IMG/VR virus record: IMGVR_UViG_3300012942_000033
Location: 35,512-99,511 of that record
Direction: 5' to 3' (one strand)
Length of the DNA: 64,000 bases
From: a virus
Taxonomy: Duplodnaviria; Heunggongvirae; Uroviricota; Caudoviricetes
Made by a program: the position numbers and the translations under genes. Positions 2 to 57,452 of the stretch are shown here, one piece after another. The notes beneath the pieces were generated by a model. It ran no database searches. It saw only the letters and a program-made list of their open reading frames with translations, and had not been told where the DNA came from. Within the stretch, counting starts at the first letter, position 1; each line of letters starts with the position of its first letter.

Positions 2-469
2 CAGGTTCACCTGGAGGGCGTCTTCGAGACGCAGGATCTCTATGATAAATCTGACCGTAGCCGCCCAGAAACTTATGATCCGTCAGCTTTCAAGAAAGTT
101 CCTACAGAGCTCCTTCAGATCCGTGAAGTGATATATGAAGTTTTCAAAAGCGAAACGCCTATGCAGGTCATTGAGGAGAACCGAAAGATCCTTAACCTGA
201 TTGCCGGTGAAAAGGCCGAAAGAGGGGTGCTTGTCGATGAAGGTTTTGAAAAGGCGCCAGAGCGCGATCATAATGCTTCGGTGAAAGCGGCCAAGATCCA
301 TGCTGCCTCAATGTTGGCTGGGAATAAGCCAGAGCCTGAATTGGTTTCTGGTTTTGAGGAAACCGATGAAGAAGCTTTGGATAGGATGAAGGCAGCCCAG
401 GCCCATGCTGATTCTATGCTTGCTACTAACAAACCAGTTCCGCGATTGGTTGATGGTTTATTCGAATAA
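2..469 (+). CDS. hypothetical protein (5' partial; open frame continues to the window start)
   Basis: Frame is open from position 2 with no stop before 469. The ATG at 128 is internal, so the gene probably starts upstream of the window. Confidence 0.45.
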   Translation, partial: QVHLEGVFETQDLYDKSDRSRPETYDPSAFKKVPTELLQIREVIYEVFKSETPMQVIEENRKILNLIAGEKAERGVLVDEGFEKAPERDHNASVKAAKIHAASMLAGNKPEPELVSGFEETDEEALDRMKAAQAHADSMLATNKPVPRLVDGLFE

Positions 470-1485
470 TGACCCAGAATATCGTCTATGATACCCTGAT
501 TGGTTTGATGCCCGGAACCAGGAGGAGAACTGCCTCTGGTTGGACCGCAATGAACGGGGTGTGCTGTATCCATAATGGTGAGACACCAGATACTCGTCGG
601 AGAATGAGTATAGCAATGGGTGATGATGGCGTGAGCTGTTTGGTCTCCTGCTTCAACTGCAAGTTCAGAGCCATTTGGAAACCAGGTCAATTACTAGGAA
701 GGAAGATGACTTCCTTCCTAGGTTGGATGGGTATGTCAGATGAAGAGATCAAGAAACTAGGCTTCAAGATCTGGCAGGAACGCGAACGGCTCAAGTTGGA
801 TGCCAATTATGTGCCCCGAGAGGTCAAGCAGCTATCCTTCAATAAAACGACTCTACCAGAAGGCTCCAGGAATGTCCTGGAACTCCTCGATGAAGATTTC
901 GAGGATCCTAACTTCATTGATGTCATGGTTTACCTGATGGGTCGTGGCGAGGATATCATGAATGGCTATGACTTCTACTGGTCACCACTTAAAGATTATG
1001 ATCTGAATCGTCGCATTATCATACCGTTCAGATGGAATCATGAGATCGTTGGTTGGTCAGCTAGGGCTTCCTTCGCAACCAAATCACGTTATCATAGCAG
1101 CGTTCCTCATCACTATATCTTCAACACCGAAGTCACTGATAATGATTGGGAATATGTCTTCCTCTGTGAAGGGCCCTTTGATGCCATCGCAATAAACGGA
1201 GTGGCGAGTCTTGGTGACAAACTGAGCGAAGAGCAAATTCAATGGCTCAAGCATACTGGTAAGACCATCATTGTAGTTCCAGATATGCAGAAGGGTGGTG
1301 GCACTCTTGTGGATGTGGCAATTAGAGAAAATTGGCAGGTCAGCTTCCCCCGTTGGGATCAGGGTATCAAGGATGCAGCTGATGCGGTAAAAAGGTATGG
1401 CAAGCTCTACACCATTTGGTCCATTATTGACGCCAGAGTCTCCAACAAATTAGAAATCAATGTGCGACGACAGCGCCTACGATAA
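469..1485 (+). CDS. DNA primase (T4 gp61 / DnaG-like, zinc finger plus Toprim)
   Basis: N-terminal Cys/His zinc-binding motif (CCIHNGETPD...CLVSCFNC). C-terminal Toprim-like acidic motifs (CEGPFDAIAING...IIVVPDMQKGGG). Start overlaps the upstream stop (TAATGA). Sits next to the helicase as in T4-like replisomes. Confidence 0.7.
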   Translation: MTQNIVYDTLIGLMPGTRRRTASGWTAMNGVCCIHNGETPDTRRRMSIAMGDDGVSCLVSCFNCKFRAIWKPGQLLGRKMTSFLGWMGMSDEEIKKLGFKIWQERERLKLDANYVPREVKQLSFNKTTLPEGSRNVLELLDEDFEDPNFIDVMVYLMGRGEDIMNGYDFYWSPLKDYDLNRRIIIPFRWNHEIVGWSARASFATKSRYHSSVPHHYIFNTEVTDNDWEYVFLCEGPFDAIAINGVASLGDKLSEEQIQWLKHTGKTIIVVPDMQKGGGTLVDVAIRENWQVSFPRWDQGIKDAADAVKRYGKLYTIWSIIDARVSNKLEINVRRQRLR

Positions 1486-1505
1486 TAAGAGACCAGGAGG
1501 TCCAA

Positions 1506-3008
1506 TTGAGCCAAAGAAAAGACCAGGTAGAGCTCAAGGATTACAGTGAGGAAGTTCAAAAGGTCCTCATTCAGTTCATGCTTACCGACAACAGCGCTTT
1601 CGTGCGTTGTCAGAATATCATCAAACCAGAATACTGGAACGAGCGTCTGCGGCCCGCAGTTCGTTATATCCAGAAGTTTGCTAATGACTATCGCGCCCTA
1701 CCCACTCCAGAACAAGTGACGGCTGAGACTGGAATTGATACGCCAATCATTCCAAACGTACAACCGCAGCATACTGAGTGGTTTCTAGATACGGTCGCCG
1801 ACTTCTGTAAGCACAAAGCTATGGAAGCTCTGGTTTATGATGGGCCTACGCTCATAGCTACTGGTGATTATGCTGAATTAGAGCGTCGATCCAAAGAGAA
1901 CATGCTCATCAGTCTACAGACTGAACTGGGTACTGATTACTTTGGTGACCCCTTGGAACGCCTTGAGCGAATGAGGGATAGAACGGATACCACGCCAAGT
2001 GGTTGGCGAGACATTGATAGCAAACTCTACGGTGGTTTGAATCGTGGTGAGATCACCTTCTTCTGCGGTGGGCCTGGTACTGGTAAATCACTGTTCCTTC
2101 AGAATCTAGCACTCAACTGGGTTCAGATGGGTCTGAACGTCATCTACATCACGATGGAGCTCAGTGAGGAGCTCGTTGGTCTGCGCTTCGACGCAATGAT
2201 CACCGAGACTCCGACTAAGATGATCTTCAAGGATATCGAGGATGTCGCCATGCGCCTCGGTATGATGCGCAAATCCGGAGGTAAGGCGGCATCCTGGGGC
2301 AAACTCCAGATCAAGAAGATGCCTATGGCGGGTACGACCTCCAACATGATCCGCGCTTATCTTCAGGAGTATGAGATCCAGACAGGCCAGAAGCCAGATG
2401 CTATTCTGGTAGACTATCTCGATCTCATGATGCCTAATAGTGGCAAGATCAATATCAGTGATCAGTTCATCAAGGATAAGTTCACCTCAGAAGAGCTACG
2501 CGCACTTGCGGTGGAATGGAATATCCTTTGCGCCACGGCGTCACAGCTCAACCGTTCATCGATCCAAGAGCAAGATTTCGACGCAAGTCACATTGCTGGT
2601 GGTATCTCGAAGATCAACACCGCTGATAACGTGTTGGCTATCTTGACCACCGCGGCGATGAAAGACCGTGGTGAATACCAGATCCAATTCATGAAGACTC
2701 GATCGTCATCTGGTGTTGGCCAGAAGATCTTCCTCAAGATTGAGTCATCAACTCTGCGAATTACAGATGCGACTCAGGAGATGCTGGAAGGTAGAGGATC
2801 TGGTGTATCGGCAATTCAGGCTGGTCTACAGGCCAAGGTCAGCACAGTTGTTCCTAAGTCAATTGGCACATCATATGCGCCCGATAAGGGTCTTACAGGG
2901 CCAGCCGCGGAGAACCCCATTCTACAGCGCTCAACCATTGAGACAGCTGGTAAGATGGCCAAAGCTGGATCACAGTTGCGAGACATTGTGCTCAAGGGTC
3001 GAGACTAA
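1506..3008 (+). CDS. replicative DNA helicase (DnaB / T4 gp41-like)
   Basis: Walker A FFCGGPGTGKS. DnaB-family motifs (ITMELS, LVDYLDLM, ATASQLNRS). TTG start preceded by AGGAGG. Confidence 0.85.
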   Translation: MSQRKDQVELKDYSEEVQKVLIQFMLTDNSAFVRCQNIIKPEYWNERLRPAVRYIQKFANDYRALPTPEQVTAETGIDTPIIPNVQPQHTEWFLDTVADFCKHKAMEALVYDGPTLIATGDYAELERRSKENMLISLQTELGTDYFGDPLERLERMRDRTDTTPSGWRDIDSKLYGGLNRGEITFFCGGPGTGKSLFLQNLALNWVQMGLNVIYITMELSEELVGLRFDAMITETPTKMIFKDIEDVAMRLGMMRKSGGKAASWGKLQIKKMPMAGTTSNMIRAYLQEYEIQTGQKPDAILVDYLDLMMPNSGKINISDQFIKDKFTSEELRALAVEWNILCATASQLNRSSIQEQDFDASHIAGGISKINTADNVLAILTTAAMKDRGEYQIQFMKTRSSSGVGQKIFLKIESSTLRITDATQEMLEGRGSGVSAIQAGLQAKVSTVVPKSIGTSYAPDKGLTGPAAENPILQRSTIETAGKMAKAGSQLRDIVLKGRD

Positions 3009-3046: not shown

Positions 3047-3331
3047 GTGTGGATGACTCGCCAACCCGACGACATCAGGAGGTACATCAGACTCACTGAA
3101 TCCTCATCCGTCGAGTTGGAAGACGATTTGGATCACATTGAAGTGCCTGATATCAATGACTCAGTTGATCTTATGCTCGAGGATATCAACGATATGGTCT
3201 TCAAGTTTCGTAGCTATAGCGAAGCAGATGTGAATCCTGATTACGCTCGTGGTATTGAGGAAGGATTGGCTCTTGCCGCCAACATGCTTGAGAGTTTGTT
3301 GGAACGCCATTCTGGTAACTCTAGCAAGTAA
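3047..3331 (+). CDS. hypothetical acidic protein
   Basis: ORF only; compact spacing; Shine-Dalgarno GAGGAGAAG upstream. Confidence 0.4.
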   Translation: MWMTRQPDDIRRYIRLTESSSVELEDDLDHIEVPDINDSVDLMLEDINDMVFKFRSYSEADVNPDYARGIEEGLALAANMLESLLERHSGNSSK

Positions 3332-3339
3332 GGGGTCCA

Positions 3340-3609
3340 ATGAAAGACGGTCGCGTAAAAAGTCTCATTGAAGAGCTCGATCTATTTGTTCCACAACGGG
3401 ATAAACACCAGATCATAGAAGCCCGTGCGAGTAATGTCATCGCCAGTGCTATGAATTTGGTCAGTTTGATCAATGAAAGTTTCACCGTTGAAGAAGCTGA
3501 GGAATTGAATCGTCGCCTTTTCAACGCTATCAAGAACCAAGATCCTGACAAGTTCAACAGGAAGGTCAGAGAGTTTCGTAAGATTGAGGAGGGCAAACGT
3601 GGCAAATAA
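3340..3609 (+). CDS. hypothetical protein
   Basis: ORF in series with its neighbours; charged helical composition. Confidence 0.4.
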   Translation: MKDGRVKSLIEELDLFVPQRDKHQIIEARASNVIASAMNLVSLINESFTVEEAEELNRRLFNAIKNQDPDKFNRKVREFRKIEEGKRGK

Positions 3610-4564
3610 TAGTGACGATATCCGCCGTCTTATGAATCTCATGGAAGGCATCCGAGAACCAACCCTCTTGGAAGGTTGGGTAGATGGTCTGAAGAATAAG
3701 ATCCATGGGCACCTGGGAAACCAGCAGCGCAAGCAGATGGCCAATGAGCTCAAGAAGGAATATTACACCTGGCTCGGTCAGACCGATCGCCGCGGAACCA
3801 TTGATGATATGGTTCGTTTCATGGCTTATCGCATTGGTTTCAAGGATGATGACATTGAGGCCGTGCTATCCAGGATCGGATATGATTCCAATGAGATCGA
3901 ATCAGCGGAAGATGATGAAGAAGAGGATCGGCCAGAACAGACGATCAGAAAGGGTTCAGAGGTTCAGGATGATCCAGAGGAAGAACCTGAATCCGATGAG
4001 CCCAAGGAACCCGAGGAAGTCACTGACGATCCTAGGAAGTACAAGGCATCCAATGGTGAATGGGATCGCAAGCGAATTAGCGCCCGTTTGGATAAGCTAC
4101 CCTTGGGTACAAAGTTGGTTTTGGGTTCAAGCAAATTCGTTCGTTCACTTGGTGATAAGGCCGAACAAACCGCTGAAAGCATCGTTGAAGATAATGGCTC
4201 GGATGAACTGATCTCCAAGGAGATGGTTAATCAGATTATGGATGCCAGTGCTACCAGGGTTAATGATCAATATCTTCTAAACGGGCCAGCTCGTGATGCT
4301 GAAGCAGCTATGATGACTCGAAGAGGTAGGAAGGGCCAAGGTCAGGCATCACCCAATATCCCCAATAAGGAAGGGTCGGGCCGCTATGACTCCAAGGAGA
4401 TGGTCAACATCCTGAAGTCAGACTTCCAGATCAATAACGCTAACTCCTTCGCCGATACGCTGACTCGCAAGGTTATGAAGGCGCCTAGTATTTCGAGCCT
4501 CAGTGATAACGACATGCATGATCTGGCTCTCCTGGGTTGGGCGTTGATTCGCGCCCGCAACTAA
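3584..4564 (+). CDS. hypothetical protein
   Basis: 326-aa ORF with an acidic central region. The internal out-of-frame ORF 3705..4211 is treated as spurious. Confidence 0.5.
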   Translation: MRRANVANNSDDIRRLMNLMEGIREPTLLEGWVDGLKNKIHGHLGNQQRKQMANELKKEYYTWLGQTDRRGTIDDMVRFMAYRIGFKDDDIEAVLSRIGYDSNEIESAEDDEEEDRPEQTIRKGSEVQDDPEEEPESDEPKEPEEVTDDPRKYKASNGEWDRKRISARLDKLPLGTKLVLGSSKFVRSLGDKAEQTAESIVEDNGSDELISKEMVNQIMDASATRVNDQYLLNGPARDAEAAMMTRRGRKGQGQASPNIPNKEGSGRYDSKEMVNILKSDFQINNANSFADTLTRKVMKAPSISSLSDNDMHDLALLGWALIRARN

Positions 4565-4572
4565 ATTGAAAT

Positions 4573-5769
4573 TTGAGCACCACATCTGCTAGATGTGGTG
4601 ACATGCCCAGCATTCCACATTTTGAAGATCTGAGTGCTCGAGAGATCTACGAGTCTCTTGACCTCAACTGGTCTGTCAGTGAAAAACTAGATGGTTCCTA
4701 CTTGGAAGCCGGTCTAGACGATGATGGATTCTTCTACAGCCACCGTAAGGGTGGTGAGCGGAATTATCATGTGAATGATTGGCCCGATGAGTGTTGGGCT
4801 GCCACCTATCGCATTGCTCATGACATGGCCGGAATGCTCATTGAGGCATTGCTCAAGGAACAAGCAATCAGCCCTGGCAACTATATGGGATTTGAGATCA
4901 TCCATGGAAATTGGCCCAATGTGGTCAGATACAATATACAGCCACCACATAACGGCGTCATGGTTATCACGACTATCTCCTGGAAGCCATCAACTACCTT
5001 CTACACCGTTATTGAGCGTTTCTCCACATTCTACAGGGCTCCAGTTCGCCGAAGTAGTGATGGTATAACGAGTCAGGTTGTGATGGAAGATCAGGATTGG
5101 GTGATCAAACCCAATCCTCAGATAGTTCCAGAATTAGTTCAAGCACGACTCAATCCATCGGCCCAGAGAGTTCGTAAGGTTCTCGATATATGGTTCCCCC
5201 AGGAGAGTAAGGTAGAAGGGTTCACGGTTGCTGAAATCCTTGATATCAATTTGGCCCGCAAGCATGAGAAATGTGGTGACCGCAATTGGAATGACCTACG
5301 CCGTGAACTCAAAAGGGAACGCGATCAACTTAGAGAATCCTTCCTGTCTTTGACTCTGCTATTCAAAGATGCCGCGTACAAGGTTCTAGTCGATGAAATG
5401 CCGAGTGTGTTGGGCGCAGGCTCCAGAAAGGAAGGAGTAGTCGTGCTGACGCCCAGAGGGCTGTTTAAGATAGTTAATCGTGACAGCTTCCTGGAGTCTA
5501 ATCTCTTCATCCACCGAATCAAATACATGCTGGTTGGTGGTCGGAGACCAGTCAGACCTTGCTTCTTGAGCCGAACCAAAGATTGGTCCTTGGAGAAGCG
5601 GTTACTGAGACTCAACACCCTCCTTTACCGGTATATGGCTCATAGGAATCGCCTGAGGCTTGTTGAGGATTATGGCTACACTCAGGAGATAGGTTACACC
5701 GGTGACCTACACCAACGCATGTTGAACCTATTCGCTGACACAAGAAAGAGAATCGAAGATGGGCGGTAA
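4573..5769 (+). CDS. ATP-dependent RNA/DNA ligase-like nucleotidyltransferase (Rnl1-like)
   Basis: Motif I-like SEKLDGSY (KxDG, compare T4 Rnl1 KEDG). Later EGVVVLTPRGLFKIVNRD resembles ligase motifs IV and V. Confidence 0.45.
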   Translation: MSTTSARCGDMPSIPHFEDLSAREIYESLDLNWSVSEKLDGSYLEAGLDDDGFFYSHRKGGERNYHVNDWPDECWAATYRIAHDMAGMLIEALLKEQAISPGNYMGFEIIHGNWPNVVRYNIQPPHNGVMVITTISWKPSTTFYTVIERFSTFYRAPVRRSSDGITSQVVMEDQDWVIKPNPQIVPELVQARLNPSAQRVRKVLDIWFPQESKVEGFTVAEILDINLARKHEKCGDRNWNDLRRELKRERDQLRESFLSLTLLFKDAAYKVLVDEMPSVLGAGSRKEGVVVLTPRGLFKIVNRDSFLESNLFIHRIKYMLVGGRRPVRPCFLSRTKDWSLEKRLLRLNTLLYRYMAHRNRLRLVEDYGYTQEIGYTGDLHQRMLNLFADTRKRIEDGR

Positions 5770-6652
5770 GGCATTCGAAGGGATAACTCGTCGAGTTACT
5801 AAGGATGAGGTAGCCTCCACGGTCACTTGGTTCATGAACGCATGGCCCGATTGGAACCTCAATCCAACACTCAACCTGCATCAGGCCCTCCTAGGTAGTG
5901 CGGGTAAGAATGAGACTTCCGGTGACATTGATTTGAACCTAGAGATTACATCATTTGATCAAACCAAGGTAGCTCAGCAAATAATTGAGCTCTTGGGTGA
6001 AGATAAGGTGAAACCAAGACCAGGCCATAACCAGATCTTTACCGCTGTTCCAATCAGTGGTGATCCAGCAAATGGTTACGTTCAGGTTGATCTGATGTTC
6101 GGTGATTATGTGTGGCAGAAGTTCAGTTACTTCTCACCTGAATACACTGACACGATTTCGTGGAGTGGTTTGAATCGCTGCGCGAGTGGCTTCAAAGGGC
6201 TTTATCGAACCGAGTTTATCAAGGCTCTAGTGGCTTTCAATTCCGATTGGGTATTGGAAGAAGGCGGCAAGATGATCGCCAGGGTTGGCCCTACCTTCTT
6301 TCATGATAAAGGCCTGGTGTGGCGCTATCGTCACCGTCCCATGCGAAAGGATGGCAAGGGCCGTATTCAGGCCCTTGTTGAGCTCAATAAGGATGACTTC
6401 CTTGCAATCTATCCAACTGCCATGCCTGCTAAGGCGAATGTGATCAATGATCCTGAGACGGTAGCAAAGCTTCTGTTTGATAACAAGGTGGCATCATCTG
6501 ACCTCAATACTTTGGAGTATATGGCGCGACTCCTTCGTCGACACTATGATCGTGACCAAATCAATAAGATCATCCAGATCTACCATGAACGGTTAAATAG
6601 CCTGAAGGTTGAGATACCTCTGAGTAAGTTTCGTCAGATTTGGTTGAGGTGA
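5759..6652 (+). CDS. Pol-beta superfamily nucleotidyltransferase
   Basis: LLGSAGKNETSGDIDLNLEI matches the hG[GS]x(9-13)DhD nucleotidyltransferase signature. Subfamily cannot be resolved from sequence alone. Confidence 0.45.
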   Translation: MGGKAFEGITRRVTKDEVASTVTWFMNAWPDWNLNPTLNLHQALLGSAGKNETSGDIDLNLEITSFDQTKVAQQIIELLGEDKVKPRPGHNQIFTAVPISGDPANGYVQVDLMFGDYVWQKFSYFSPEYTDTISWSGLNRCASGFKGLYRTEFIKALVAFNSDWVLEEGGKMIARVGPTFFHDKGLVWRYRHRPMRKDGKGRIQALVELNKDDFLAIYPTAMPAKANVINDPETVAKLLFDNKVASSDLNTLEYMARLLRRHYDRDQINKIIQIYHERLNSLKVEIPLSKFRQIWLR

Positions 6653-6656
6653 TGAT

Positions 6657-6842
6657 ATGCGTTGGAGCGAAATCGTAAATGAGACAGCTAGTGCTGGAGC
6701 AAGTTCTGCTGGAGGTGTAGCTACTTGCGTAGGTGGTCTTGGTGCTGGATTTGATCCTAATGGTCACAAGGGTATCTATGATACCGCAGAACGCAAGAAG
6801 AAGCGCAAGAAAGCCAAAACTTCCCCTATTATCCGTCGCTAA
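6657..6842 (+). CDS. small hypothetical protein (Gly/Ala-rich, basic C-terminus)
   Basis: ORF with a Shine-Dalgarno site. N-terminus MRWSEI is identical to that of ORF 14643..15008. Confidence 0.4.
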   Translation: MRWSEIVNETASAGASSAGGVATCVGGLGAGFDPNGHKGIYDTAERKKKRKKAKTSPIIRR

Positions 6843-6855
6843 ATGAACAACCTGA

Positions 6856-6863
6856 CTAAATAG
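6856..6863 (+). promoter_or_regulatory. candidate T4-type late promoter element (CTAAATAG)
   Basis: CTAAATA lies about 35 nt upstream of the ATG at 6898. The same motif precedes genes at 12334, 36260 and 37292. It resembles the TATAAATA / CTAAATA late-promoter box of T4-like phages. Confidence 0.4.
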
Positions 6864-6897
6864 AGATAACAGAAACTCTCTACTAGGAGATTTACAA

Positions 6898-7275
6898 ATG
6901 GCTTCTTACAAGATTCATGGTTGGTCCAAGGCACCTGATCAGTTCCTGACTGGTGGTCTTCCAATGTACACGGTCACCGTTACCAATGTTGACCTTACTG
7001 TAATGACCCCTGCTGATGCAGATGATGGCGAGCAGCACAATGTCGCTCTCGATAAGCTCGTTGAGCTCATCTCGACTCGTGCACAGCCTGTTGTTATTGG
7101 TACTGTTGGTCAGCATAGCTTCCGTTTTGCTGTTGAGCATGACGACGCTTTCGGTGGCACTGATTCCAGTGATAACGAGACCCTAGCTGGTTTTACGGCA
7201 AAGGTTCAGGCTGGTCTACAGGCAGCTCTAGATGACGACACCGTCACTGTTGCTATTGCTGCGTTCGTATTCTAA
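6898..7275 (+). CDS. hypothetical protein (probably highly expressed, possibly virion-associated)
   Basis: Strong Shine-Dalgarno site (TAGGAGA), late-promoter-like motif upstream and a strong terminator immediately downstream. Confidence 0.6.
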   Translation: MASYKIHGWSKAPDQFLTGGLPMYTVTVTNVDLTVMTPADADDGEQHNVALDKLVELISTRAQPVVIGTVGQHSFRFAVEHDDAFGGTDSSDNETLAGFTAKVQAGLQAALDDDTVTVAIAAFVF

Positions 7276-7298: not shown

Positions 7299-7336
7299 AA
7301 AAGCCCGCTAGCCGTAAAGACTAGCGGGCTTTTTGC
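7299..7336. terminator. bidirectional rho-independent terminator
   Basis: AAAAGCCCGCTAG-loop-CTAGCGGGCTTTTT lies between the convergent genes 6898..7275 (+) and 7349..7657 (-). It is A-rich on one side and T-rich on the other. Confidence 0.75.
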
Positions 7337-7714: not shown

Positions 7715-9376
7715 TTATTGGTCTGATATCAGGTGTGTGACATCTCGAACAACACTTTGAATTTCAATGAGTTTACCTTCTTCATCAAAGATGCCCCGAT
7801 CGATCCAATCCTGCCAACGGATCTCATCATGGCGTTGAATGCGATGAACGCCCCGTCTAACTTCATGCTCGGGCCGAATAGCTAACATGTAATCTTTGAA
7901 CTTCTGGTGATCACTCGGTGGTATCACCTCAAAGAGTGAGAAGCCGTTGATATCCTCGAGTTCTACATCAAAGTAGTCTCGAAAGGTCTGGTTGCTGAAG
8001 GTGATCTCGAAATTACTGTTGAAGCAGACCACCATATCAATGGTGTTATCGATGATCGTCTTGTAACGCTCTCGAGCTGTCTTGAGTTGGGTCTCGATAT
8101 CCTTGAACTCTGTGACATCACGCACGATCGCGATACGAGCCTCTGCGTTATCCCACTCAATAGCTCTACTGTTTACTGCGACCTCCTTGACATCACCCTC
8201 TTTAGTCAGGAACAGAGTCTCGTAGGATTTATCACTAACCAGGTCGGCGTCAGCGATGATCTTCTCGCGTTCCAAAGGATGAAGAAGATCGAAAGGATTG
8301 AGTTTCTCCAATTCAGTGTCATTGTAACCAGTCAGATTATAGGCTCGCTCGTTCCAATCCATGAGCTTCTTATAGTTGTGGATGAACATGGATTCCGATG
8401 ATGCGTCACTGAATGCTCTGAAATGTGATTCGCTCCGACTCAAATCCGTGTAGGCTTTCTTGAGCTCAGTGGTATCGTAGAAAACCAGAATCCATTGAAC
8501 TGCCTGATAGCCTTTGAAAATTGGTGTGATATGAACGTCAAACCACAGCTTCTTAGTGTCTTTGAATTCCAACTGAACCTCGTGGCGGGCGGTGATTTCC
8601 TCTCCTAGCGTTCGGCGCACCTTCCAGTAGGATTGGTCAATACCCAGGATATCTCGGAGATTCCTCTTACTAAGTTCGGCTCGGGTGGTATTGGTGATAC
8701 GCGCAAAGCCTTCATTGACGAATGTGATTTTATAGTCAGGGTCGTTCTTCTCAAGAATCACGAAACCAGTATTCGATGAATCAATCGTCGTAAGTAGCTC
8801 TTGATTCTTCTCGGCTAGCTCTTTCATGATCTTCGAGCTGCGAACTCTGTGAGTCACATTGCGGATCAGAATGATGTAATAGGTCTTGCTGTTGCTACGG
8901 GTGAATTTGCTCGCGCCGACATCAACGTAAATCTTGGCACCATCCTGGCAGATACCCATGAACTCTTCATAATGAACTGTCGCAAAGTCGTCTTCTTCAT
9001 TGACCTGCCCCATCATGTTTTCCATGAAGTCAGAATTAACGACCACTCCATCATCGAAATGAAAGAGGAGTGAGATGCTCTTGCCAATGACCTGGCGTTT
9101 CTTCCAGCCAAACATCGTTTCAGCAGCTGGGTTGAAGCTCTCAATGTTGCCATTGGTATCGACGAGTAGAAGGGCGTCACTTAGGAGTCTGGATGTTTGG
9201 TCGATCTGGTTCGCGTAGTCATCAATTCGGGCCTGGAGTGCGGTTGTGACATCCTGAGCTAGATCCATTGTGCCCTTGGCGGCCTTCTCTAGAGCTTCGC
9301 TACTATCGAGGGCCGCCTGTAGACTTGCTGATCTTGCTTTCTTCCGATCTTCCTTGGATTGCCCGAACCACTTCAT
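7715..9376 (-). CDS. multi-PAS domain protein (about four PAS/PAC repeats, no recognisable output domain)
   Basis: PAS-like segments recur, for example LLLVDTNGNIESFNPAAETMFGW, FVILEKNDPDYKITFVNEGFARITN, MFIHNYKKLMDWNERAYNLTGY and MVVCFNSNFEITFSNQTFRDYF. No HisKA, GGDEF or HTH domain is seen. Confidence 0.7.
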   Translation of the reverse strand: MKWFGQSKEDRKKARSASLQAALDSSEALEKAAKGTMDLAQDVTTALQARIDDYANQIDQTSRLLSDALLLVDTNGNIESFNPAAETMFGWKKRQVIGKSISLLFHFDDGVVVNSDFMENMMGQVNEEDDFATVHYEEFMGICQDGAKIYVDVGASKFTRSNSKTYYIILIRNVTHRVRSSKIMKELAEKNQELLTTIDSSNTGFVILEKNDPDYKITFVNEGFARITNTTRAELSKRNLRDILGIDQSYWKVRRTLGEEITARHEVQLEFKDTKKLWFDVHITPIFKGYQAVQWILVFYDTTELKKAYTDLSRSESHFRAFSDASSESMFIHNYKKLMDWNERAYNLTGYNDTELEKLNPFDLLHPLEREKIIADADLVSDKSYETLFLTKEGDVKEVAVNSRAIEWDNAEARIAIVRDVTEFKDIETQLKTARERYKTIIDNTIDMVVCFNSNFEITFSNQTFRDYFDVELEDINGFSLFEVIPPSDHQKFKDYMLAIRPEHEVRRGVHRIQRHDEIRWQDWIDRGIFDEEGKLIEIQSVVRDVTHLISDQ

Positions 9377-12237: not shown

Positions 12238-12264
12238 AACGACCAGTTGGCCCAACTGGTCGTT
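12238..12264 (+). terminator. stem-loop, possible terminator
   Basis: AACGACCAGTTGG / CCAACTGGTCGTT perfect inverted repeat. There is no clear U-tract. Confidence 0.35.
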
Positions 12265-14601: not shown

Positions 14602-14630
14602 GGTTGGGGAGGCCACCCTCCCCAACACTT
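14602..14630 (+). terminator. rho-independent terminator
   Basis: GGTTGGGGAGG-CCAC-CCTCCCCAAC followed by a T-containing tract. Confidence 0.6.
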
Positions 14631-15008: not shown

Positions 15009-15379
15009 ATACCTTCCCCACAGCCTCTGATGCACGAGCAGGTTCTCGCAATAACATAGCGATCCATAACGAGATCCGAGCAATAGAATCGGATATCTAT
15101 AACGCCATTGCTCAGGGTAAGATGAACGCAGATGTCAAGGATAGCCCATTTACTGTGACACCGACCGAGGGTGCACCCGACTCAGATATCAACGCCTATG
15201 ACTATTACGGAGCTCTATTCCAGGATACGCCTGGAAGCTCTGATGTTGATCTACTCTACCGCTCACTCAAGGAGCAAATTGACATCGTTCAACAGAACTT
15301 CACCAGTCTAGGCTATCAAGTTCAACCCCTTCAGAATACTGATACGGGTAACACGTTCTTCTGGAGGATCTTATGGTAA
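15005..15379 (+). CDS. hypothetical protein
   Basis: ATGA overlap with the upstream gene. Confidence 0.5.
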   Translation: MNTFPTASDARAGSRNNIAIHNEIRAIESDIYNAIAQGKMNADVKDSPFTVTPTEGAPDSDINAYDYYGALFQDTPGSSDVDLLYRSLKEQIDIVQQNFTSLGYQVQPLQNTDTGNTFFWRILW

Positions 15380-16998
15380 TGGAATTACTCAAGATGCTCA
15401 ACGAGACTAAGCTTCATTCACGCACTCATTATGATGGCCTTGACATCAGTGTTGAGGTTCCTGCTAATGGTTATCGCCGTGGTATCAACAAGAAGACTGG
15501 TGAGGAATGGTCTTACAAGATTCCAGCCAGCTACGGTTACATCAAAGGCACGCATAGCCCTGATGGCGAACACTTGGATTGCTATCTGAGGAAGAACCCC
15601 AAGAAGGGCGCTCAGGTTTATGTCATGCACCAGTTGACACCTGATGGTTCTCGCTTTGATGAGGATAAGGTAATGCTTGGTTATTCAAGCAAGAGCGAAG
15701 CTATCAAAGCATTCAAGGGCATGACTTTCAAGCCGGGTACGATGTACGGCGGTTGTACTGAATTTGATATGGAGCACTTCCAGGTGATCGCATTCAGTGC
15801 CTCAAATAGTCACGCCATGTTGACTAAGAATGCCACCTATGATGAATTCAAACGCAAGGGCCTGCTACCCAGGAACATCAAGAGCCCACTCATGGTTGCT
15901 CGGAAGGTTTGTGAGGGTCTAGCAGAAGGTCTTAACGAGATTGGCCAGACTCTAAGTCGTGGTGATCTCGAAGAATGTCTAGATTGGTCAGGTTACCATG
16001 AAGGCAGTTCAATCGAAGCAGTTCTTACTCGTGCCTATGGTCATTACTCAGGCACACCGTACATGCATGACTTTGGAACCCTATCAGAGGAAGAGTTCAA
16101 AGCCAAAGTGCTCAACCATATCATGGAGCAGGATGCTCTTCTGACTGATACCGAGGATCATTATGGATTGGAAGAAGCTATCGAGGAACTTGAACCTATC
16201 AGTGAAGATATTGGTGATATTGAAAGCGGTGACCGACATTCACCTGATCTTGAAATCGAAGAAGTAACGGAGGAAGCCATGGAAGCCAATAACTTTGCCG
16301 TAGTGGTTCATACCCAGATGATGGAAAACATTGGCTCGGCCGAGAATCCAAGTTGGGCAACTGCTGGAACTAAGGTTCTGCTGGTTCAGGAGGGTTTTGC
16401 TACTTGGGGTGAGGCACGCTCGGTCGCTGCCAAGGTTGCTGCGGGGCAGATCTCCGTTGAGCTATCGGAGAATGCTCATGTGCTTGGTATTGATGTCATG
16501 CCAACTGCTGATTACCACTACCTACATGAAGAGGTAGTAGAAGATGAGCCAGTTGAAGAAGACATGACCGATGATGTCTTCTTCCAACAGCAGGTCATGG
16601 AGATGAAAGCAAAGGCTGGTATCCGTGATGGCTCCTATGAAAACCAGGGCACACCTAGCGTTCATGAAACTCGCGAACGTCTCGCTAAGTTGACCCAAGA
16701 CTTTTACAAGGGTCTGGAAGCTCAGGAGCTCGAGGAAGCTACTGCCAAGTTGAGTGATGGTAAGATTGCTCATGCTCTTCGAGTAGTCAAGGAGACGCTG
16801 AAGGCAAATCCACATGCCAATGTCAATCAGGCAATCAGAGCTGTTTGTAAGAGGCTCTTTGGTGATCCAAACCTCGATGAAGAAGTGATCAAATATGCCG
16901 AATTTGAATATGGCACTCTAGATGAGTTCGATGATCAGATCCGTGGTCGGAAGGCACCTGAGAAGATCTCAAGAGTTATCACCAAATACGAGAACTAA
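15373..16998 (+). CDS. hypothetical protein
   Basis: 541-aa ORF. Confidence 0.6.
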   Translation: MVMELLKMLNETKLHSRTHYDGLDISVEVPANGYRRGINKKTGEEWSYKIPASYGYIKGTHSPDGEHLDCYLRKNPKKGAQVYVMHQLTPDGSRFDEDKVMLGYSSKSEAIKAFKGMTFKPGTMYGGCTEFDMEHFQVIAFSASNSHAMLTKNATYDEFKRKGLLPRNIKSPLMVARKVCEGLAEGLNEIGQTLSRGDLEECLDWSGYHEGSSIEAVLTRAYGHYSGTPYMHDFGTLSEEEFKAKVLNHIMEQDALLTDTEDHYGLEEAIEELEPISEDIGDIESGDRHSPDLEIEEVTEEAMEANNFAVVVHTQMMENIGSAENPSWATAGTKVLLVQEGFATWGEARSVAAKVAAGQISVELSENAHVLGIDVMPTADYHYLHEEVVEDEPVEEDMTDDVFFQQQVMEMKAKAGIRDGSYENQGTPSVHETRERLAKLTQDFYKGLEAQELEEATAKLSDGKIAHALRVVKETLKANPHANVNQAIRAVCKRLFGDPNLDEEVIKYAEFEYGTLDEFDDQIRGRKAPEKISRVITKYEN

Positions 16999-17000: not shown

Positions 17001-17027
17001 ATGGAGCGGGGCAAGACCCCGCTCCAT
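17001..17027 (+). terminator. rho-independent terminator-like hairpin
   Basis: ATGGAGCGGGG-CAAGA-CCCCGCTCCAT. Confidence 0.5.
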
Positions 17028-25295: not shown

Positions 25296-26269
25296 CCAAA
25301 CCAGCAGTAAGAAAGGGTGATAAGTGTACGGGTCATGGCGACGCAAAGCCAAGACCTTGTGACCAGGGTTCACCTGATACTTTCATCAATGGTAAGGCAG
25401 CCCACCGCCAGGGTGACCATTGGGCAGTTCATAAAAATCATGACAGTCACCTCGCAAAAGGTTCTGATTGCGTCTTTGTGAATGGTAAGGGTCAGGGTAG
25501 GGTTGGTGATCCTATCCTTTGTGGAAGTCGGTGCCAACAAGGTAGCCCGAACGTCTTCGTAGGTGATAATTCGAGTAGTGGCGGATCAAGTCAGTCAGGC
25601 CAAGGAGCAGCTTCTGCACCAATTGATTACACCAACCCATACCGCTTTGAAGGTGGTGCTGGTGCGGATGGTTATTCGGGTTCAGGCACCATTGAGACTG
25701 AAGGCGGCGTTACTGGTGCTAGTGATTCCGATACACCAGCCTCTGATCCTGATTCACAGGAGCCACTAGACGCAAGTGATGATGACGTTGATTGGCTCAC
25801 CACGTGTATGATTGATGAGGCGGGTAATCAGAGCCAGAAGGATGCTTGGGCAGCGGTAGCCGCTGTGGTAGTAGATCGACTACAGACTGGTAGAGCGACC
25901 GGAACGGTTAATCCGGCCTGGCACGGAACTATCAAGGGTATCGTTCTAGCTAATGGTCAATTCTCGGGCTTCTACTTTGAGATGATCAACCGTCACTACA
26001 CTAGAGTCGTAGCAAGCAAGGATTGGGCGGCTGCTGAAAAACGTGGCAAACAGAAGATGGCACGATATCGTCAGCGTTCTCAATGGAATGCCTTCCATGA
26101 GGTGGCCCAACAGGTCGTCAATGGATCCTACCAGGGCGGTGCAGGCTGGAGATTAGTTAAGAGTCGCCCTGCGCTCATGTACTGTAATCTGGCCATCTCA
26201 AATCCGCCCTGGGCCACCCAGAGCAAATATGTCACTAAAATCGAGGATCACACCTTTTTCGTGGCTTGA
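25292..26269 (+). CDS. PAAR-like domain protein fused to a SleB-type cell-wall hydrolase
   Basis: N-terminus has PAAR/gp5.4-like Cys/His/Gly repeats (KGDKCTGHGD...GSPDTFINGKAAHRQGDHWAVH...VFVNGKGQGRVGDPILCGSRC...SPNVFVGDN). C-terminus has a SleB/Hydrolase_2-like segment (CMIDEAGNQS...VVVDRL...GIVLANGQFSGF). ATGA overlap with the upstream gene. Confidence 0.6.
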   Translation: MTKPAVRKGDKCTGHGDAKPRPCDQGSPDTFINGKAAHRQGDHWAVHKNHDSHLAKGSDCVFVNGKGQGRVGDPILCGSRCQQGSPNVFVGDNSSSGGSSQSGQGAASAPIDYTNPYRFEGGAGADGYSGSGTIETEGGVTGASDSDTPASDPDSQEPLDASDDDVDWLTTCMIDEAGNQSQKDAWAAVAAVVVDRLQTGRATGTVNPAWHGTIKGIVLANGQFSGFYFEMINRHYTRVVASKDWAAAEKRGKQKMARYRQRSQWNAFHEVAQQVVNGSYQGGAGWRLVKSRPALMYCNLAISNPPWATQSKYVTKIEDHTFFVA

Positions 26270-26294
26270 CATCTTGGTGTCACGTTGCTATATA
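26266..26294 (+). promoter_or_regulatory. sigma70-type promoter driving the tmRNA gene
   Basis: TTGACA (26266-26271), a 17-nt spacer, then TATATA (26289-26294). This places the transcription start near 26301, just ahead of the tmRNA acceptor piece. Confidence 0.55.
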
Positions 26295-26300
26295 GGATGG

Positions 26301-26760: not shown

Positions 26761-26827
26761 AAAGGGCCAACCTTCCTATTACTCTTGACCTATTGGTAAA
26801 CTCCATTATTCTGCCGGGTAATGGGGT

Positions 26828-37210: not shown

Positions 37211-37216
37211 TGATGA

Positions 37217-37251
37217 GCATGGCCTCGAGGATTACTCGAGGCCATGCTTTG
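37217..37251 (+). terminator. rho-independent terminator
   Basis: GCATGGCCTCGAG-GATTA-CTCGAGGCCATGC followed by TTTG. Confidence 0.65.
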
Positions 37252-38268: not shown

Positions 38269-38294
38269 AATGGCGGGGAGATCTCCCCGCCATT
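38269..38294 (+). terminator. rho-independent terminator
   Basis: AATGGCGGGGAG-ATCT-CTCCCCGCCATT followed by GTCTTG. Confidence 0.6.
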
Positions 38295-41056: not shown

Positions 41057-41117
41057 TGGTTGACACTCACCAGTCTGGTGCTAGATCTAGCCTTGAGACA
41101 ACAAGGAGATCGACGTG
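41057..41117 (+). promoter_or_regulatory. conserved promoter/leader cassette (second copy)
   Basis: TGGTTGACAC...ACAAGGAGATCGAC-GTG. The -10-like element is weaker here (GGTGCT). Confidence 0.35.
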
Positions 41118-42242
41118 CTGAATAAGCTGATGACACCGGAGACGAAGAAGCTGAGCAAGGCCTTTGACATGGCCGGCTTCGAAATCCGTTTCGTCGGCGG
41201 CTGCGTTCGGGACGTTCTGCTGGGTGTTGAACCCAAGGATGTGGATTTCTGCACTGACGCCACTCCTGACGAGATGCGCGATATCGCGGTAATCAACAAG
41301 TTCAAGTTCCTGCCCACTGGCATCGATCACGGCACCGCAACCATCGTAGTTGATGGTGAGCCCTTTGAGGTCACCACCCTGCGCGTTGATGCGGAGACTG
41401 ATGGTCGTCATGCCAAGGTCGAGTTCACCAGGGATTTTGAACTGGATGCCGAGAGGCGTGACCTGACCATCAACGCAATGTCGATGGATACAAAGGGCAA
41501 TCTCTTCGACTATTTCGGTGGCCAGGAGGATCTGAAGAACAAGGTCGTGCGGTTCGTCGGTGATGCGAAGACGCGCATCGAGGAGGATTACCTGCGTATC
41601 CTGCGTTACTTCCGTTTCGCGGCTCGGTTCGATGCACAGATGGATCAGGAGACGCTGGATATCTTCAGCGATCCTGAAGTGCTGGCTGGTCTGAATCGAG
41701 TTAGTGTTGAGCGGTTCTGGTTGGAGATGTCAAAGCTGCTGACCTATAGCGCTCGGGTGCGAGTCATGGAGGCTATCTTTGGCACTGGCGTCAATGCTTC
41801 GTTGAATCTGTTTCGGTTCGAGCCCAATGAGCTGAGCCGGGCCGATGATGCGGTGGCCGCATTGGCAACGCTGATCTCGAGCGACGACGAGGAGCGGTTC
41901 TTCCAAATCTGGAAGATGAGCTCTCCGGAGGAGGCAAAGGTTCGCAACATGATCCGTAACCGCGGTGGGTTCCTGGATGAAGTGCGCGTTGAGGTCATGC
42001 TGACCCGCGATAAGTTCCCCAGGGATCACGTGGTGAGCCTGGCTCTGGTCGCCAGTGAGCCCACGCTGGCTCAACATGCTAGGGATTTTGTTGTTCCGAC
42101 CTTCCCCATTACGGGTAAGGATCTGATGGGTGTTGGTATGGCTCCAGGCCCACAGATGGGTCAGCGCCTGCGTCGGATGGAAGCAGCCTGGGTTGATAGC
42201 CGGTGGAACCTGGCCAAGGAAGCCCTGATGGAGATCGAGTAA
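41115..42242 (+). CDS. CCA-adding tRNA nucleotidyltransferase / poly(A) polymerase family protein
   Basis: Class II nucleotidyltransferase head motifs: FVGGCVRDVLLG, DVDFCTDATPDE, GIDHGTATIV, RRDLTINAMS. GTG start. Confidence 0.8.
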   Translation: MLNKLMTPETKKLSKAFDMAGFEIRFVGGCVRDVLLGVEPKDVDFCTDATPDEMRDIAVINKFKFLPTGIDHGTATIVVDGEPFEVTTLRVDAETDGRHAKVEFTRDFELDAERRDLTINAMSMDTKGNLFDYFGGQEDLKNKVVRFVGDAKTRIEEDYLRILRYFRFAARFDAQMDQETLDIFSDPEVLAGLNRVSVERFWLEMSKLLTYSARVRVMEAIFGTGVNASLNLFRFEPNELSRADDAVAALATLISSDDEERFFQIWKMSSPEEAKVRNMIRNRGGFLDEVRVEVMLTRDKFPRDHVVSLALVASEPTLAQHARDFVVPTFPITGKDLMGVGMAPGPQMGQRLRRMEAAWVDSRWNLAKEALMEIE

Positions 42243-49242: not shown

Positions 49243-49268
49243 AATGGGTGGCATTGCTGCCACCCATT
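49243..49268. terminator. bidirectional terminator
   Basis: AATGGGTGGCA-TTGC-TGCCACCCATT lies between convergent genes. Confidence 0.6.
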
Positions 49269-57038: not shown

Positions 57039-57452
57039 GTGAAAGCCTATGAGATCATTGAAACCGATGAAAAGCCGCGGCGCGGTTATCAGGCCTTTGA
57101 GCTCGATGCGGCAAGTCGAAGCCATTTGGCCAAGATCTTCCCTCCTAAGTTCCCCGAGTTCATTGGTCATCACATCACCTATGCCTTTGGCGTGATGTCT
57201 AGTGATCCCCTGCCGGAGGCTTCAAGGATTCAGGTTGTAGGATATGCCTGTGATCCAGAAGGTATTGAAGCCTTGGTCGTATCCATTGATGGTACGACAG
57301 AACGGCCCGATGGTAAGACTTTTCATATCACTTGGTCTTTGGATCGTAGCGCGGGTTTCAAGCCAGTGAATTCCAATGATCTTATTGCGAAAAGGGGTTG
57401 GTCAAGGATGCGTGGATCGATAAATATTGTCGCCACCGCTAGGTTTTTCTAG
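57039..57452 (+). CDS. 2H phosphoesterase (LigT / cyclic phosphodiesterase-like)
   Basis: Two H-x-T-x motifs (GHHITYAFG and TFHITWSLD) at the spacing expected for the 2H superfamily. GTG start behind GGAGG. Confidence 0.45.
   Translation: MKAYEIIETDEKPRRGYQAFELDAASRSHLAKIFPPKFPEFIGHHITYAFGVMSSDPLPEASRIQVVGYACDPEGIEALVVSIDGTTERPDGKTFHITWSLDRSAGFKPVNSNDLIAKRGWSRMRGSINIVATARFF

What the first reader, a model, noticed from the sequence alone, without database searches (positions are those of the whole stretch)
4573..6652. Candidate RNA-repair set: Rnl1-like ligase plus Pol-beta-type nucleotidyltransferase, with a distant CCA-adding enzyme, 2H phosphoesterase and HNH endonuclease
ORF 4573..5769 has ligase motif I (KLDG) and motif IV/V-like EGVVV...K. 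The adjacent ORF has a GS...DxD nucleotidyltransferase signature. Elsewhere the window encodes a CCA-adding enzyme (41115..42242) and a two-HxTx 2H phosphoesterase (57039..57452). Together with the tmRNA these suggest the phage repairs or maintains tRNA-like RNAs, as T4 Rnl1 and Pnk counter anticodon nucleases. The nucleotidyltransferase might instead belong to a signalling family such as the CD-NTases, which would be notable in a phage.
Basis: inference. Interest (0 to 1): 0.55.

Follow-up and report, generated by a model that had tools for sequence, protein, structure and literature searches.

The report
Phage ligase plus PolX-like nucleotidyltransferase pair
Two overlapping, unannotated genes of a giant phage encode a divergent RNA-ligase-like sealing enzyme and a DNA-polymerase-beta-like nucleotide-adding enzyme; the two are fused into one protein in other phages and usually sit just after the replication helicase, so they probably fill and seal broken nucleic acid together.

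Summary

Neither protein hits Pfam, PHROGs, NCBIfam or PDB sequences. The genes overlap by 11 nt. They are syntenic in 17 related jumbo-phage loci.

The decisive result is fusion. Ten cluster representatives are ORF-A::ORF-B single proteins. ORF-B-type domains are also fused or adjacent to DUF6267, a ligase-like relative, and once to an ATP-dependent DNA ligase domain.

ORF-B is not RlaP, not a CD-NTase and not a CCA enzyme. ORF-A is not Rnl1.

The pair lies directly downstream of primase and DnaB helicase here, in PA5oct and in several distant lineages. That position favours a fill-in-and-seal role on replicating or damaged DNA, possibly with a ribonucleotide 3' end. tRNA repair remains a serious rival.

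The distant CCA enzyme, "2H" ORF and tmRNA are unlinked. Atu_ph07 also carries LigA and Rnl1, so the pair is a separate system.

Verdict: a new variant of known polymerase-plus-ligase repair modules, of moderately high interest.

The parts
4603..5769 (+). ORF-A: a divergent polynucleotide ligase (388 aa). It has an RNA-ligase-type adenylyltransferase domain with a long helical insert (about residues 176-264) between motifs III and IV, and a conserved basic C-terminal module (NxFTHxVKYxxxGGRRPxRPxFLSRTKxW). The mechanical ORF starts at TTG 4573, but homologues start at ATG 4603.
5759..6652 (+). ORF-B: a Pol-beta-fold nucleotidyltransferase (297 aa) with a family-X-polymerase-like palm and thumb, plus a C-terminal helical domain.
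5759..5769 (+). 11-nt overlap of the ORF-B start codon with the end of ORF-A (ATCGAAGATGGGCGGTAA), in different frames. This is an arrangement typical of translational coupling.
   Evidence: In the 17 related loci the ORF-B match follows directly on ORF-A; in all but Atu_ph07 (partial ORF-A match) it begins a few nt before the end of the ORF-A match. Annotated CDS overlaps are seen in Phosso and Atu_ph07.
4578..4600 (+). Perfect 10-bp hairpin (CACCACATCT-GCT-AGATGTGGTG) in the 38-nt spacer between the upstream gene and ORF-A, ending 2 nt before ATG 4603. It could be a terminator, a stabiliser or a translational-control stem-loop.
   Evidence: Hairpins with different stem sequences occur at the same place in 13 of 14 close relatives (z from -2.0 to -6.1), often enclosing the AUG. 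They are absent in L017, Phosso and Atu_ph07.
469..3008 (+). Context: DnaG-type primase (469-1485) and DnaB-like replicative helicase (1506-3008), which head the conserved gene string that contains the pair.
   Evidence: Pfam DnaB_C and PHROG 19 (E 1e-68). Weak Toprim_2 hit. Homologues are annotated primase and helicase in Phosso, Atu_ph07 and PA5oct.
3047..4564 (+). Context: three conserved genes of unknown function between the helicase and ORF-A. They are h94 (3047-3331), h89 (3340-3609) and h326 (3584-4564, with an acidic middle).
   Evidence: Largely syntenic across the 17 related loci (h89 in 16, h94 in 15, h326 in 14; only primase, helicase and the pair in Atu_ph07). No family assignment. 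The genes at the same positions in PA5oct are labelled virion proteins by mass spectrometry.
6657..7275 (+). Context: two small conserved downstream genes, h61 (6657-6842) and h125 (6898-7275). They are followed by a bidirectional terminator-like hairpin at 7299-7333.

Best explanation
ORF-A and ORF-B form a two-enzyme 'extend-and-seal' module for broken nucleic acid.

ORF-B is a family-X-polymerase-like Pol-beta nucleotidyltransferase with catalytic carboxylates D56, D58 and D111. It adds one or a few nucleotides to a 3'-OH at a gap or break. ORF-A is a lysine-adenylylating ligase, with K28 of KxDG as the AMP acceptor. It has an Rnl2/Rnl5-type nucleotidyltransferase domain and no OB domain. 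It then seals the resulting 3'-OH/5'-phosphate nick.

The two are made together through overlapping genes, and in other phages they are literally one polypeptide.

I infer that the substrate is most likely duplex phage DNA at replication or repair intermediates. The reasons are that the module sits immediately after primase and replicative helicase in many divergent phages, that the nucleotidyltransferase resembles gap-filling DNA polymerases, and that it is alternatively fused to a genuine ATP-dependent DNA ligase domain.

The RNA-ligase-type sealing domain suggests that the 3' end being joined may carry ribonucleotides. That would be a 'ribo-patch', as in bacterial LigD Pol+Lig and the DraRnl/NgrRnl nick-sealing RNA ligases.

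Shown here: family memberships at motif and fold level, coupling, fusion and synteny. Inferred: the order of reactions, the DNA or hybrid substrate, and the use of ribonucleotides.
For: - Ligase identity: invariant motifs; RNA-ligase NTase fold; borderline PF09414 hits in family members.
- Coupling: 11-nt overlap; the ORF-B match follows directly on ORF-A in the 17 loci.
- Fusions: ten fusion proteins with ORF-A at the N-terminus and ORF-B at the C-terminus. Continuous fusion ORFs in my own standard-code calls on viral contigs: L057 and L058 with ORF-A-type ligase, L076 and L077 with DUF6267.
- Other ligase partners: about 600-aa ORF-B::DUF6267 fusions and adjacent ORF-B/DUF6267 genes. DUF6267 shares the HxED, KxDG, EGxV and KxVxR motif order with ORF-A. 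P0262 is ORF-B fused to PF01068 DNA_ligase_A_M at 36.8 bits.
- Replication context: primase-DnaB-...-pair in the window clade and in PA5oct. PHROG-confirmed primase and/or DnaB upstream in L044, L075 and L074. A DnaB-like gene lies upstream on the same strand in 31 of 59 more distant loci. The DUF6267 gene follows gp41 helicase in cyanophage S-PM2.
- A separate RNA-repair ligase exists: Atu_ph07 already has a T4-like Rnl1.
Against: - The ligase domain's nearest relatives all act on RNA 3'-OH ends, and it lacks the OB domain that, to my knowledge, known DNA ligases share (model).
- An RNA-ligase/Pol-beta NTase partnership (RlaP) is an established RNA-repair theme in jumbo phages.
- Synteny with primase and helicase could be inherited gene order within the wider T4-like lineage rather than a functional link.
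- Atu_ph07 also has an NAD-dependent DNA ligase and a Pol I-like gene, so no replication step is obviously left vacant.
- Some ORF-B relatives are fused to GNAT, cytidylyltransferase-like or NUDIX domains, which hints at other chemistry.
- No biochemistry exists for either family.
Confidence: 0.45

Rival explanations
1. RNA (tRNA) repair module, analogous to RlaP plus Rnl. ORF-B restores nucleotides lost from the 3' end of a cleaved tRNA or other RNA, and ORF-A religates it. This would counter host anticodon nucleases and is essentially the first reader's idea.
Against: ORF-B is not RlaP by Pfam or by profile comparison, with a positive control. No kinase, phosphatase, RtcB or 2H gene was found next to the pair in the loci examined. 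The context is primase and helicase instead. The related Atu_ph07 already has Rnl1 and lists no polynucleotide kinase. One ORF-B relative is fused to a DNA-ligase-type domain.
Confidence: 0.3
2. ORF-A, and its relative DUF6267, is the phage's own Okazaki-fragment or nick-sealing replicative ligase, with ORF-B as the dedicated gap-filling polymerase. That would make it a core replication function rather than a repair accessory.
For: Constant position after primase and helicase. DUF6267 is a conserved gene (T4-GC 71) of cyanomyoviruses, a group reported to lack any known DNA ligase.
Against: Atu_ph07, from the same wider clade, has an NAD-dependent DNA ligase (gp282) and a Pol I-like gene. Cyanophage S-PM2 has DUF6267 without an adjacent ORF-B. 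There is no OB domain. The phyletic complementarity with canonical ligases was not measured.
Confidence: 0.12
3. The enzymes do not act on polynucleotide breaks at all. They would make or modify a small nucleotide or a protein or cofactor adduct, for example NAD-related chemistry, signalling nucleotides or NMPylation. Alternatively, they are virion-delivered effectors.
For: ORF-B relatives are fused to GNAT, cytidylyltransferase-like and NUDIX domains. S-PM2's DUF6267 protein has an NMN-adenylyltransferase-like C-terminus. PA5oct's ORF-B-like gp253 and its neighbours are labelled virion proteins by mass spectrometry.
Against: To my knowledge, all characterised members of the KxDG covalent nucleotidyltransferase superfamily are polynucleotide ligases or capping enzymes. 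The dominant fusion partners of ORF-B are ligase-type domains. CD-NTases and small-molecule NTases rank below PolX, and there is no Pfam or NCBIfam signalling-family hit.
Confidence: 0.08

Closest known systems
RlaP (PF10127) nucleotidyltransferase with RNA ligase (Rnl/RtcB) RNA-repair operons; T4 NrdC.11 is a member
   Same: A Pol-beta-fold NTase is genetically partnered with a polynucleotide ligase and is common in jumbo phages. The proposed logic is the same: add nucleotides to a 3'-OH, then ligate.
   Different: ORF-B shows no sequence or profile similarity to RlaP, and its fold is closest to PolX. The context is the replication module rather than RtcB, PNK or phosphatase operons.
Bacterial NHEJ LigD (Pol + Lig domains) and the 'ribo-patch' idea; DraRnl/NgrRnl (Rnl5) nick-sealing RNA ligases
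   Different: The LigD polymerase has an archaeo-eukaryotic-primase fold, not a Pol-beta fold, and the LigD ligase has an OB domain. ORF-A has a large helical insert and a unique C-terminal module. No Ku partner was seen.
African swine fever virus Pol X plus viral DNA ligase (base-excision repair)
   Different: The ASFV ligase is a canonical DNA ligase with OB and DNA-binding domains. The ASFV genes are not fused or overlapping. ORF-B has an extra C-terminal helical domain.
Kinetoplastid editosome REL1 ligase plus RET2 terminal uridylyltransferase
   Different: It is a eukaryotic RNA-editing complex. TUTases rank below PolX for ORF-B, and there is no evidence of guide-RNA-type substrates.
Pfam DUF6267 (PF19782), a conserved hypothetical of T4-like cyanophages, pelagiphages and others
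   Same: The same motif order (HxED, KxDG, long insert, EGxV, KxVxR). N-terminal profile match of 92% probability. The same partnership with ORF-B-type NTases and the same position after the replicative helicase.
   Different: The window protein does not reach the DUF6267 model. DUF6267 lacks the GGRRPxRP...SRTKDW C-terminal module. The family has no published function.
T4 Rnl1 plus Pnk tRNA repair
   Same: A phage-encoded ligase of the same superfamily.

Membership tests
Covalent nucleotidyltransferase superfamily (polynucleotide ligases and capping enzymes) | Motif I KxDG with the catalytic lysine | tested here: met
   K28-L-D30-G31 is invariant in 28 of 28 aligned homologues. 72 of 73 family members have KxDG.
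Covalent nucleotidyltransferase superfamily (polynucleotide ligases and capping enzymes) | Motifs III, IV and V (acidic residue, EG, lysine) in order after motif I | tested here: met
   Invariant E98, E277-G278 and K289 in the right order. Assignment to motif numbers is by position and invariance, not by a residue-level structural superposition.
Covalent nucleotidyltransferase superfamily (polynucleotide ligases and capping enzymes) | Adenylyltransferase-domain fold | tested here: met
ATP/NAD-dependent DNA ligases and capping enzymes | OB-fold domain following the nucleotidyltransferase domain | tested here: not met
Rnl1 (PF09511, T4 RnlA type) | Sequence match to the family model, or closest fold | tested here: not met
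Rnl2/Rnl5/REL1-type RNA ligases (PF09414) | Match to the PF09414 model at the gathering score | tested here: inconclusive
   The window protein has no hit. Family members P0176 (27.7 bits) and P0174 (26.9 bits) straddle the cutoff of 27 over most or all of the model, and L081 scores 23 bits. The structural top hits are Rnl5, REL1 and Rnl2.
DUF6267 (PF19782) | Match to the family model | tested here: inconclusive
   No hit for the window protein. Weak hits for relatives (E 0.001-0.005). Profile-profile comparison gives 92% probability, E 6e-7, over the N-terminal 58 columns only.
Pol-beta-fold nucleotidyltransferase superfamily | hG[GS] motif, DxD and a third carboxylate on the palm sheet | tested here: met
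Family X DNA polymerases | Palm-plus-thumb architecture closest to PolX | tested here: met
Family X DNA polymerases | Sequence match to the PolX palm or thumb models; 8-kDa and fingers (HhH) domains | tested here: not met
   None of 34 family members hits PF14792, PF14791 or the HhH models. One distant relative (L080) gives a sub-threshold PF14792 hit (E 0.0024). Only about 45 residues precede the GS motif, too few for the 8-kDa and fingers domains.
Family X DNA polymerases | Template-directed dNTP incorporation | not testable with these tools
   Needs enzymology.
RlaP (PF10127) | Match to PF10127 or to a bona fide member | tested here: not met
   0 of 34 members hit PF10127 at E<=10. The positive control T4 NrdC.11 hits it at 46.6 bits, but gives 0.3% probability against the ORF-B profile.
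CD-NTases (cGAS/DncV-like) | Sequence or closest-fold match | tested here: not met
Class II CCA-adding enzyme (for the separate ORF 41115..42242) | PolyA_pol head domain | tested here: met
   PF01743 E 4e-34; phrog_2244 E 5e-61.
2H phosphoesterase (for ORF 57039..57452) | Two HxT/S motifs on the 2H fold | tested here: inconclusive
   HHITY and FHITW are present. There is no Pfam, NCBIfam or PDB match, only phrog_36523 of unknown function.

The most novel reading that the evidence does not exclude
ORF-A and DUF6267 would together define an unrecognised, OB-less class of phage nick-sealing ligases. With a PolX-like partner (more than 1400 sequence clusters, no annotation anywhere), this class would form a dedicated replication-fork gap-fill-and-seal machine in T4-like and jumbo phages. 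It might join ribonucleotide-terminated 3' ends, and it might be the long-missing DNA ligase of T4-like cyanophages.
Probability: 0.2. Interest if true: 0.8.

Novelty: new variant of a known kind. Interest (0 to 1): 0.6.

Why it matters
Both proteins are 'hypothetical' in every record I found and invisible to Pfam, PHROGs, NCBIfam and PDB sequence searches. Yet the nucleotidyltransferase family alone has more than 1400 clusters at 50% identity, seemingly confined to phages.

The repeated fusion to three different ligase types is strong genomic evidence for a widespread polymerase-ligase partnership that has not been characterised.

If the substrate is DNA or an RNA-DNA hybrid, this adds a PolX-type enzyme and an OB-less ligase to phage replication and repair. 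It also offers a concrete, testable candidate (DUF6267) for how cyanomyoviruses seal DNA without a recognisable ligase.

If the substrate is RNA, it is a second, non-RlaP solution to 'trim-and-fill' RNA repair. In either case the enzymes could be useful reagents, as compact end-filling and nick-sealing fusions.

Tried and rejected
- Direct sequence annotation of ORF-A and ORF-B failed in Pfam, PHROGs, NCBIfam, PDB phmmer and PDB profile hmmsearch.
- Megablast of the region against phage genomes found nothing.
- RlaP membership is rejected, with a positive control.
- CD-NTase, CCA, poly(A) and aminoglycoside-NTase readings are rejected on rank and on lack of any hit.
- Rnl1 is rejected.
- PA5oct gp255, the gene next to the ORF-A homologue, is not ORF-B-like. 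The ORF-B-like gene there is gp253, two genes further on.
- 'ORF-A is the only ligase of the clade' is rejected. The Atu_ph07 supplement lists an NAD-dependent DNA ligase and an Rnl1.
- The protein AAX44695.1, which Iyer et al. flagged as a ligase-related DNA-binding domain, is a different 207-aa gene and not DUF6267.
- hhalign of the ORF-A profile against single DUF6267 or L080 sequences was uninformative. It worked only profile against profile.
- RNAalifold on the start-site hairpin gave no consensus because the hairpins are out of register in the alignment. Single-sequence folds were used instead.
- The context of the second ORF-B paralogue (DnaJ, ClpP) was uninformative.
- A scan of 185,579 species genomes with one peptide pattern found no cellular relative. 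This is a narrow test.
- Not done: locating the HNH gene, scanning every window ORF for a polynucleotide kinase, and a structure for the '2H' ORF.
Full report
**1. What is there**

The window is part of a jumbo phage genome.
- The region has no near-identical DNA match among 50,697 phage records.
- The proteins' closest cultured relatives are Sinorhizobium phage Phosso (469 kb) and Agrobacterium phage Atu_ph07 (490 kb).
- Metagenomic homologues sit on contigs of 435-480 kb.
- A two-piece alphaproteobacterial tmRNA at 26262-26772 fits an alphaproteobacterial host.

The two ORFs exist as described. All homologues of ORF-A start at the Met encoded at 4603, not at the TTG at 4573. ORF-B's ATG at 5759 lies inside the last codons of ORF-A, with an 11-nt overlap in another frame.

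**2. ORF-A is a ligase-superfamily enzyme of the RNA-ligase type**

Evidence for ligase identity:
- In 28 homologues sharing 34-76% identity with the window protein, K28-x-D30-G31, E98, E277-G278 and K289 are invariant. So is a striking C-terminal block, N300, H304, K307, Y308, G312, G313, R315, P316 ... F321, L322, R324, T325, W328.
- The AlphaFold model is confident (pLDDT 93, pTM 0.87).
- T4 Rnl1 (7.5) and DNA ligases (6.4-7.5) rank lower. No capping enzyme is in the top 60.
- About 170-197 residues align, which is the adenylyltransferase domain.
- The region after motif V is mainly helical and not an OB fold. A roughly 90-residue helical insert separates motifs III and IV.

Sequence libraries:
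- The window protein itself matches nothing in Pfam, PHROGs, NCBIfam or PDB.
- Distant members of its family reach Pfam RNA_ligase PF09414 at or just under the gathering score: 27.7 and 26.9 bits against 27, over most or all of the model.

The label 'Rnl1-like' was not.

**3. ORF-B is a Pol-beta-fold nucleotidyltransferase closest to family X polymerases**

- G46-S47, G55-D56-x-D58 and Q109-x-D111 are invariant in 34 homologues that go down to 29% identity.
- The model is confident (pLDDT 94.3).
- Terminal uridylyltransferases and poly(A) polymerases follow (at most 8.0), then CdnE (7.2), MenT (6.7) and CCA enzymes (5.9).
- Foldseek independently gives only Pol beta and lambda in its top 50.
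- None of the 34 family members hits any Pfam model at E<=10 that is relevant, including RlaP PF10127, PolX palm or thumb, NTP_transf_2 or the CD-NTase models.
- One distant relative gives a sub-threshold PolX-palm hit.
- As a control, T4 NrdC.11 hits RlaP at 46.6 bits but shows no similarity to the ORF-B profile.

ORF-B is therefore a new sequence family. A full HMM scan of 1.84 billion cluster representatives finds 1426 members at E<=1e-3 and 1013 at E<=1e-10. A pattern scan of 185,579 species genomes found none (a narrow test), so the family looks phage-borne.

**4. The two enzymes work together**

(a) Gene arrangement.
- In the 17 related loci the ORF-B match follows directly on ORF-A.
- Wherever ORF-A aligns over its full length, the ORF-B match starts a few nt before the ORF-A match ends.

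(b) Fusions with ORF-A-type ligases.
- Among the 150 best ORF-B relatives, ten are single proteins of 640-791 aa.
- They carry an N-terminal ORF-A-type domain (E down to 1e-63) and a C-terminal ORF-B domain, in the same order as the two genes.
- L057 and L058 carry the same combination as one continuous 894-aa ORF in my own standard-code gene calls on viral contigs.

(c) Partnership with DUF6267.
- A large group of about 600-aa phage proteins are ORF-B-like at the N-terminus and Pfam DUF6267 at the C-terminus (E about 1e-44).
- L076 and L077 are longer fusion ORFs with strong DUF6267 matches.
- In other contigs the two are adjacent genes.
- DUF6267 has invariant HPED, K-W-D-G, G-x-E-G-Y-V and K-x-V-x-R in the same order as ORF-A's PHxED, KLDG, KEGVVV and FKxVDR. 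It matches the ORF-A profile at 92% probability over the N-terminus. It is a sister ligase-like family.

(d) Fusion with a DNA ligase.
- One representative, P0262, is ORF-B fused to a classical ATP-dependent DNA ligase domain (PF01068, 36.8 bits; NCBIfam DNA-ligase models).

Independent fusion of one nucleotidyltransferase family to three ligase types is strong evidence for a shared pathway. That pathway would be nucleotide addition to a 3'-OH followed by sealing.

**5. Which nucleic acid?**

For RNA:
- The ligase domain's relatives are RNA ligases.
- The RlaP/Rnl precedent predicts exactly this logic for damaged tRNA.

For DNA or a replication-linked hybrid:
- The pair is part of the conserved string primase, DnaB helicase, three small genes, ORF-A, ORF-B. 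This holds in most close-clade loci (Atu_ph07 shows only primase, helicase and the pair) and in PA5oct, where gp256 is an ORF-A homologue (99.4%) and gp253 is ORF-B-like (E 4e-19).
- In contigs whose NTase is only about 25-30% identical, PHROGs confirm primase and/or DnaB immediately upstream in L044, L075 and L074.
- 31 of 59 more distant loci have a DnaB-like gene upstream on the same strand. Many of the rest lack enough flank.
- In cyanophage S-PM2 the DUF6267 gene follows gp43, UvsX, gp41 and MazG.
- ORF-B's fold is that of gap-filling DNA polymerases.
- One fusion partner is a DNA ligase.
- No kinase, phosphatase or RtcB gene was seen beside the pair in the loci examined.
- Atu_ph07 already has a T4-like Rnl1 and, per its published table, no polynucleotide kinase.

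Against a core replication role:
- The same Atu_ph07 table lists an NAD-dependent DNA ligase and a Pol I-like gene, so nothing is obviously missing.

My preferred reconciliation is inference. It draws on established knowledge of LigD and of DraRnl/NgrRnl, which prefer or require a ribonucleotide 3'-OH at a duplex nick. On this view the PolX-like enzyme fills a gap or extends a broken 3' end, possibly with ribonucleotides, and the Rnl-type ligase seals that end to a 5'-phosphate in duplex phage DNA.

My probabilities are about 0.45 for a DNA or hybrid substrate, 0.30 for RNA repair, 0.12 for a true replicative-ligase role and 0.08 for non-polynucleotide chemistry. The last is suggested by rarer fusions to GNAT, cytidylyltransferase-like, NUDIX and NMNAT-like domains.

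**6. The rest of the finding**

- The CCA-adding enzyme is real, and so is the tmRNA.
- The '2H' ORF has the two HxT motifs but no library support.
- These genes are 35-50 kb from the pair, and no linkage to it was found. I do not regard them as one 'set'.

**7. Novelty and value**

Polymerase-plus-ligase modules are known: RlaP/Rnl, LigD, ASFV PolX/ligase and the REL1/RET2 editosome. This one differs in several ways.
- It uses a PolX-like NTase family and an OB-less ligase family that carry no annotation anywhere.
- It is widespread, repeatedly fused, and tied to the replication module.

I rate it a new variant of a known kind, with interest 0.6.

The most novel reading still open has probability about 0.2. 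ORF-A and DUF6267 would be a new class of phage nick-sealing ligases at the fork. That class would include the 'missing' ligase of cyanomyoviruses, which are reported to lack any known DNA ligase. No paper in the library mentions DUF6267.

Noticed in passing
window 4578-4600; same position in L003-L016: A perfect 10-bp hairpin ends 2 nt before the ORF-A start codon. In 13 of 14 close relatives a hairpin with a different stem sequence occupies the same spot (z from -2.0 to -6.1), and it usually encloses the AUG. An upstream TAA..ATTGA(C) motif and a GCTA-like loop are conserved. It could be a translational control element, a terminator or stabiliser, or a promoter-overlapping palindrome.
   Followed up: partly
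window, whole (e.g. 7299-7333, 12238-12264, 14603-14626, 17001-17027, 37216-37248, 38269-38294, 49243-49268): There are 19 perfect hairpins with stems of at least 9 bp, against 0-2 in shuffled sequence. Many lie between genes, so intergenic stem-loops appear to be a general punctuation feature of this phage.
   Followed up: partly
L094 5019-6794 (Synechococcus phage S-PM2 gene S-PM2d138); L044 6736-7785 and related loci: Pfam DUF6267 looks like a ligase (HPED, KWDG, GxEGYV, LKYVDR). It is a conserved gene (T4-GC 71) of T4-like cyanophages, sitting right after the gp41 helicase. That group is reported to lack any known DNA ligase. The S-PM2 protein also has an NMN-adenylyltransferase-like C-terminus.
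   Followed up: partly
L033-L038, L040 (e.g. L035 5956-6891): The same 435-465 kb jumbo-phage contigs carry a second ORF-B paralogue (about 30% identity) at another locus, next to DnaJ and ClpP genes. This 64-kb window has only one copy.
   Followed up: partly
L018 (Pseudomonas phage PA5oct) 2838-4883 and 7319-10291: In PA5oct the ORF-B-like gp253 and most genes flanking the ORF-A homologue gp256 are annotated as virion proteins from ESI-MS/MS. This raises the possibility that part of the block is packaged in the virion.
   Followed up: no
window 26262-26772: A phage-encoded two-piece (permuted) alphaproteobacterial tmRNA (Rfam RF01849, 98.8 bits), with tag peptide ANDNTVEVALAA by ARAGORN.
   Followed up: partly
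protein P0199 (1802 aa, metagenomic): A giant ORF with three ORF-B-type domains interspersed with a cytidylyltransferase-like domain and a NUDIX domain. Other relatives are fused to GNAT acetyltransferases (P0210, P0230). These are unexplained partners.
   Followed up: no
window 3584-4564: The conserved 326-aa protein just upstream of ORF-A has a long Asp/Glu-rich central segment and no family match. Its positional counterpart in PA5oct is a mass-spectrometry-detected virion protein.
   Followed up: no
window 7715-9376 (-) and 15373-16998 (+): A protein with four PAS domains is conserved opposite the block in nearly all relatives. A 541-aa protein carries an N-terminal inorganic-pyrophosphatase-type domain (PF18823). 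Both are unusual phage cargo.
   Followed up: no
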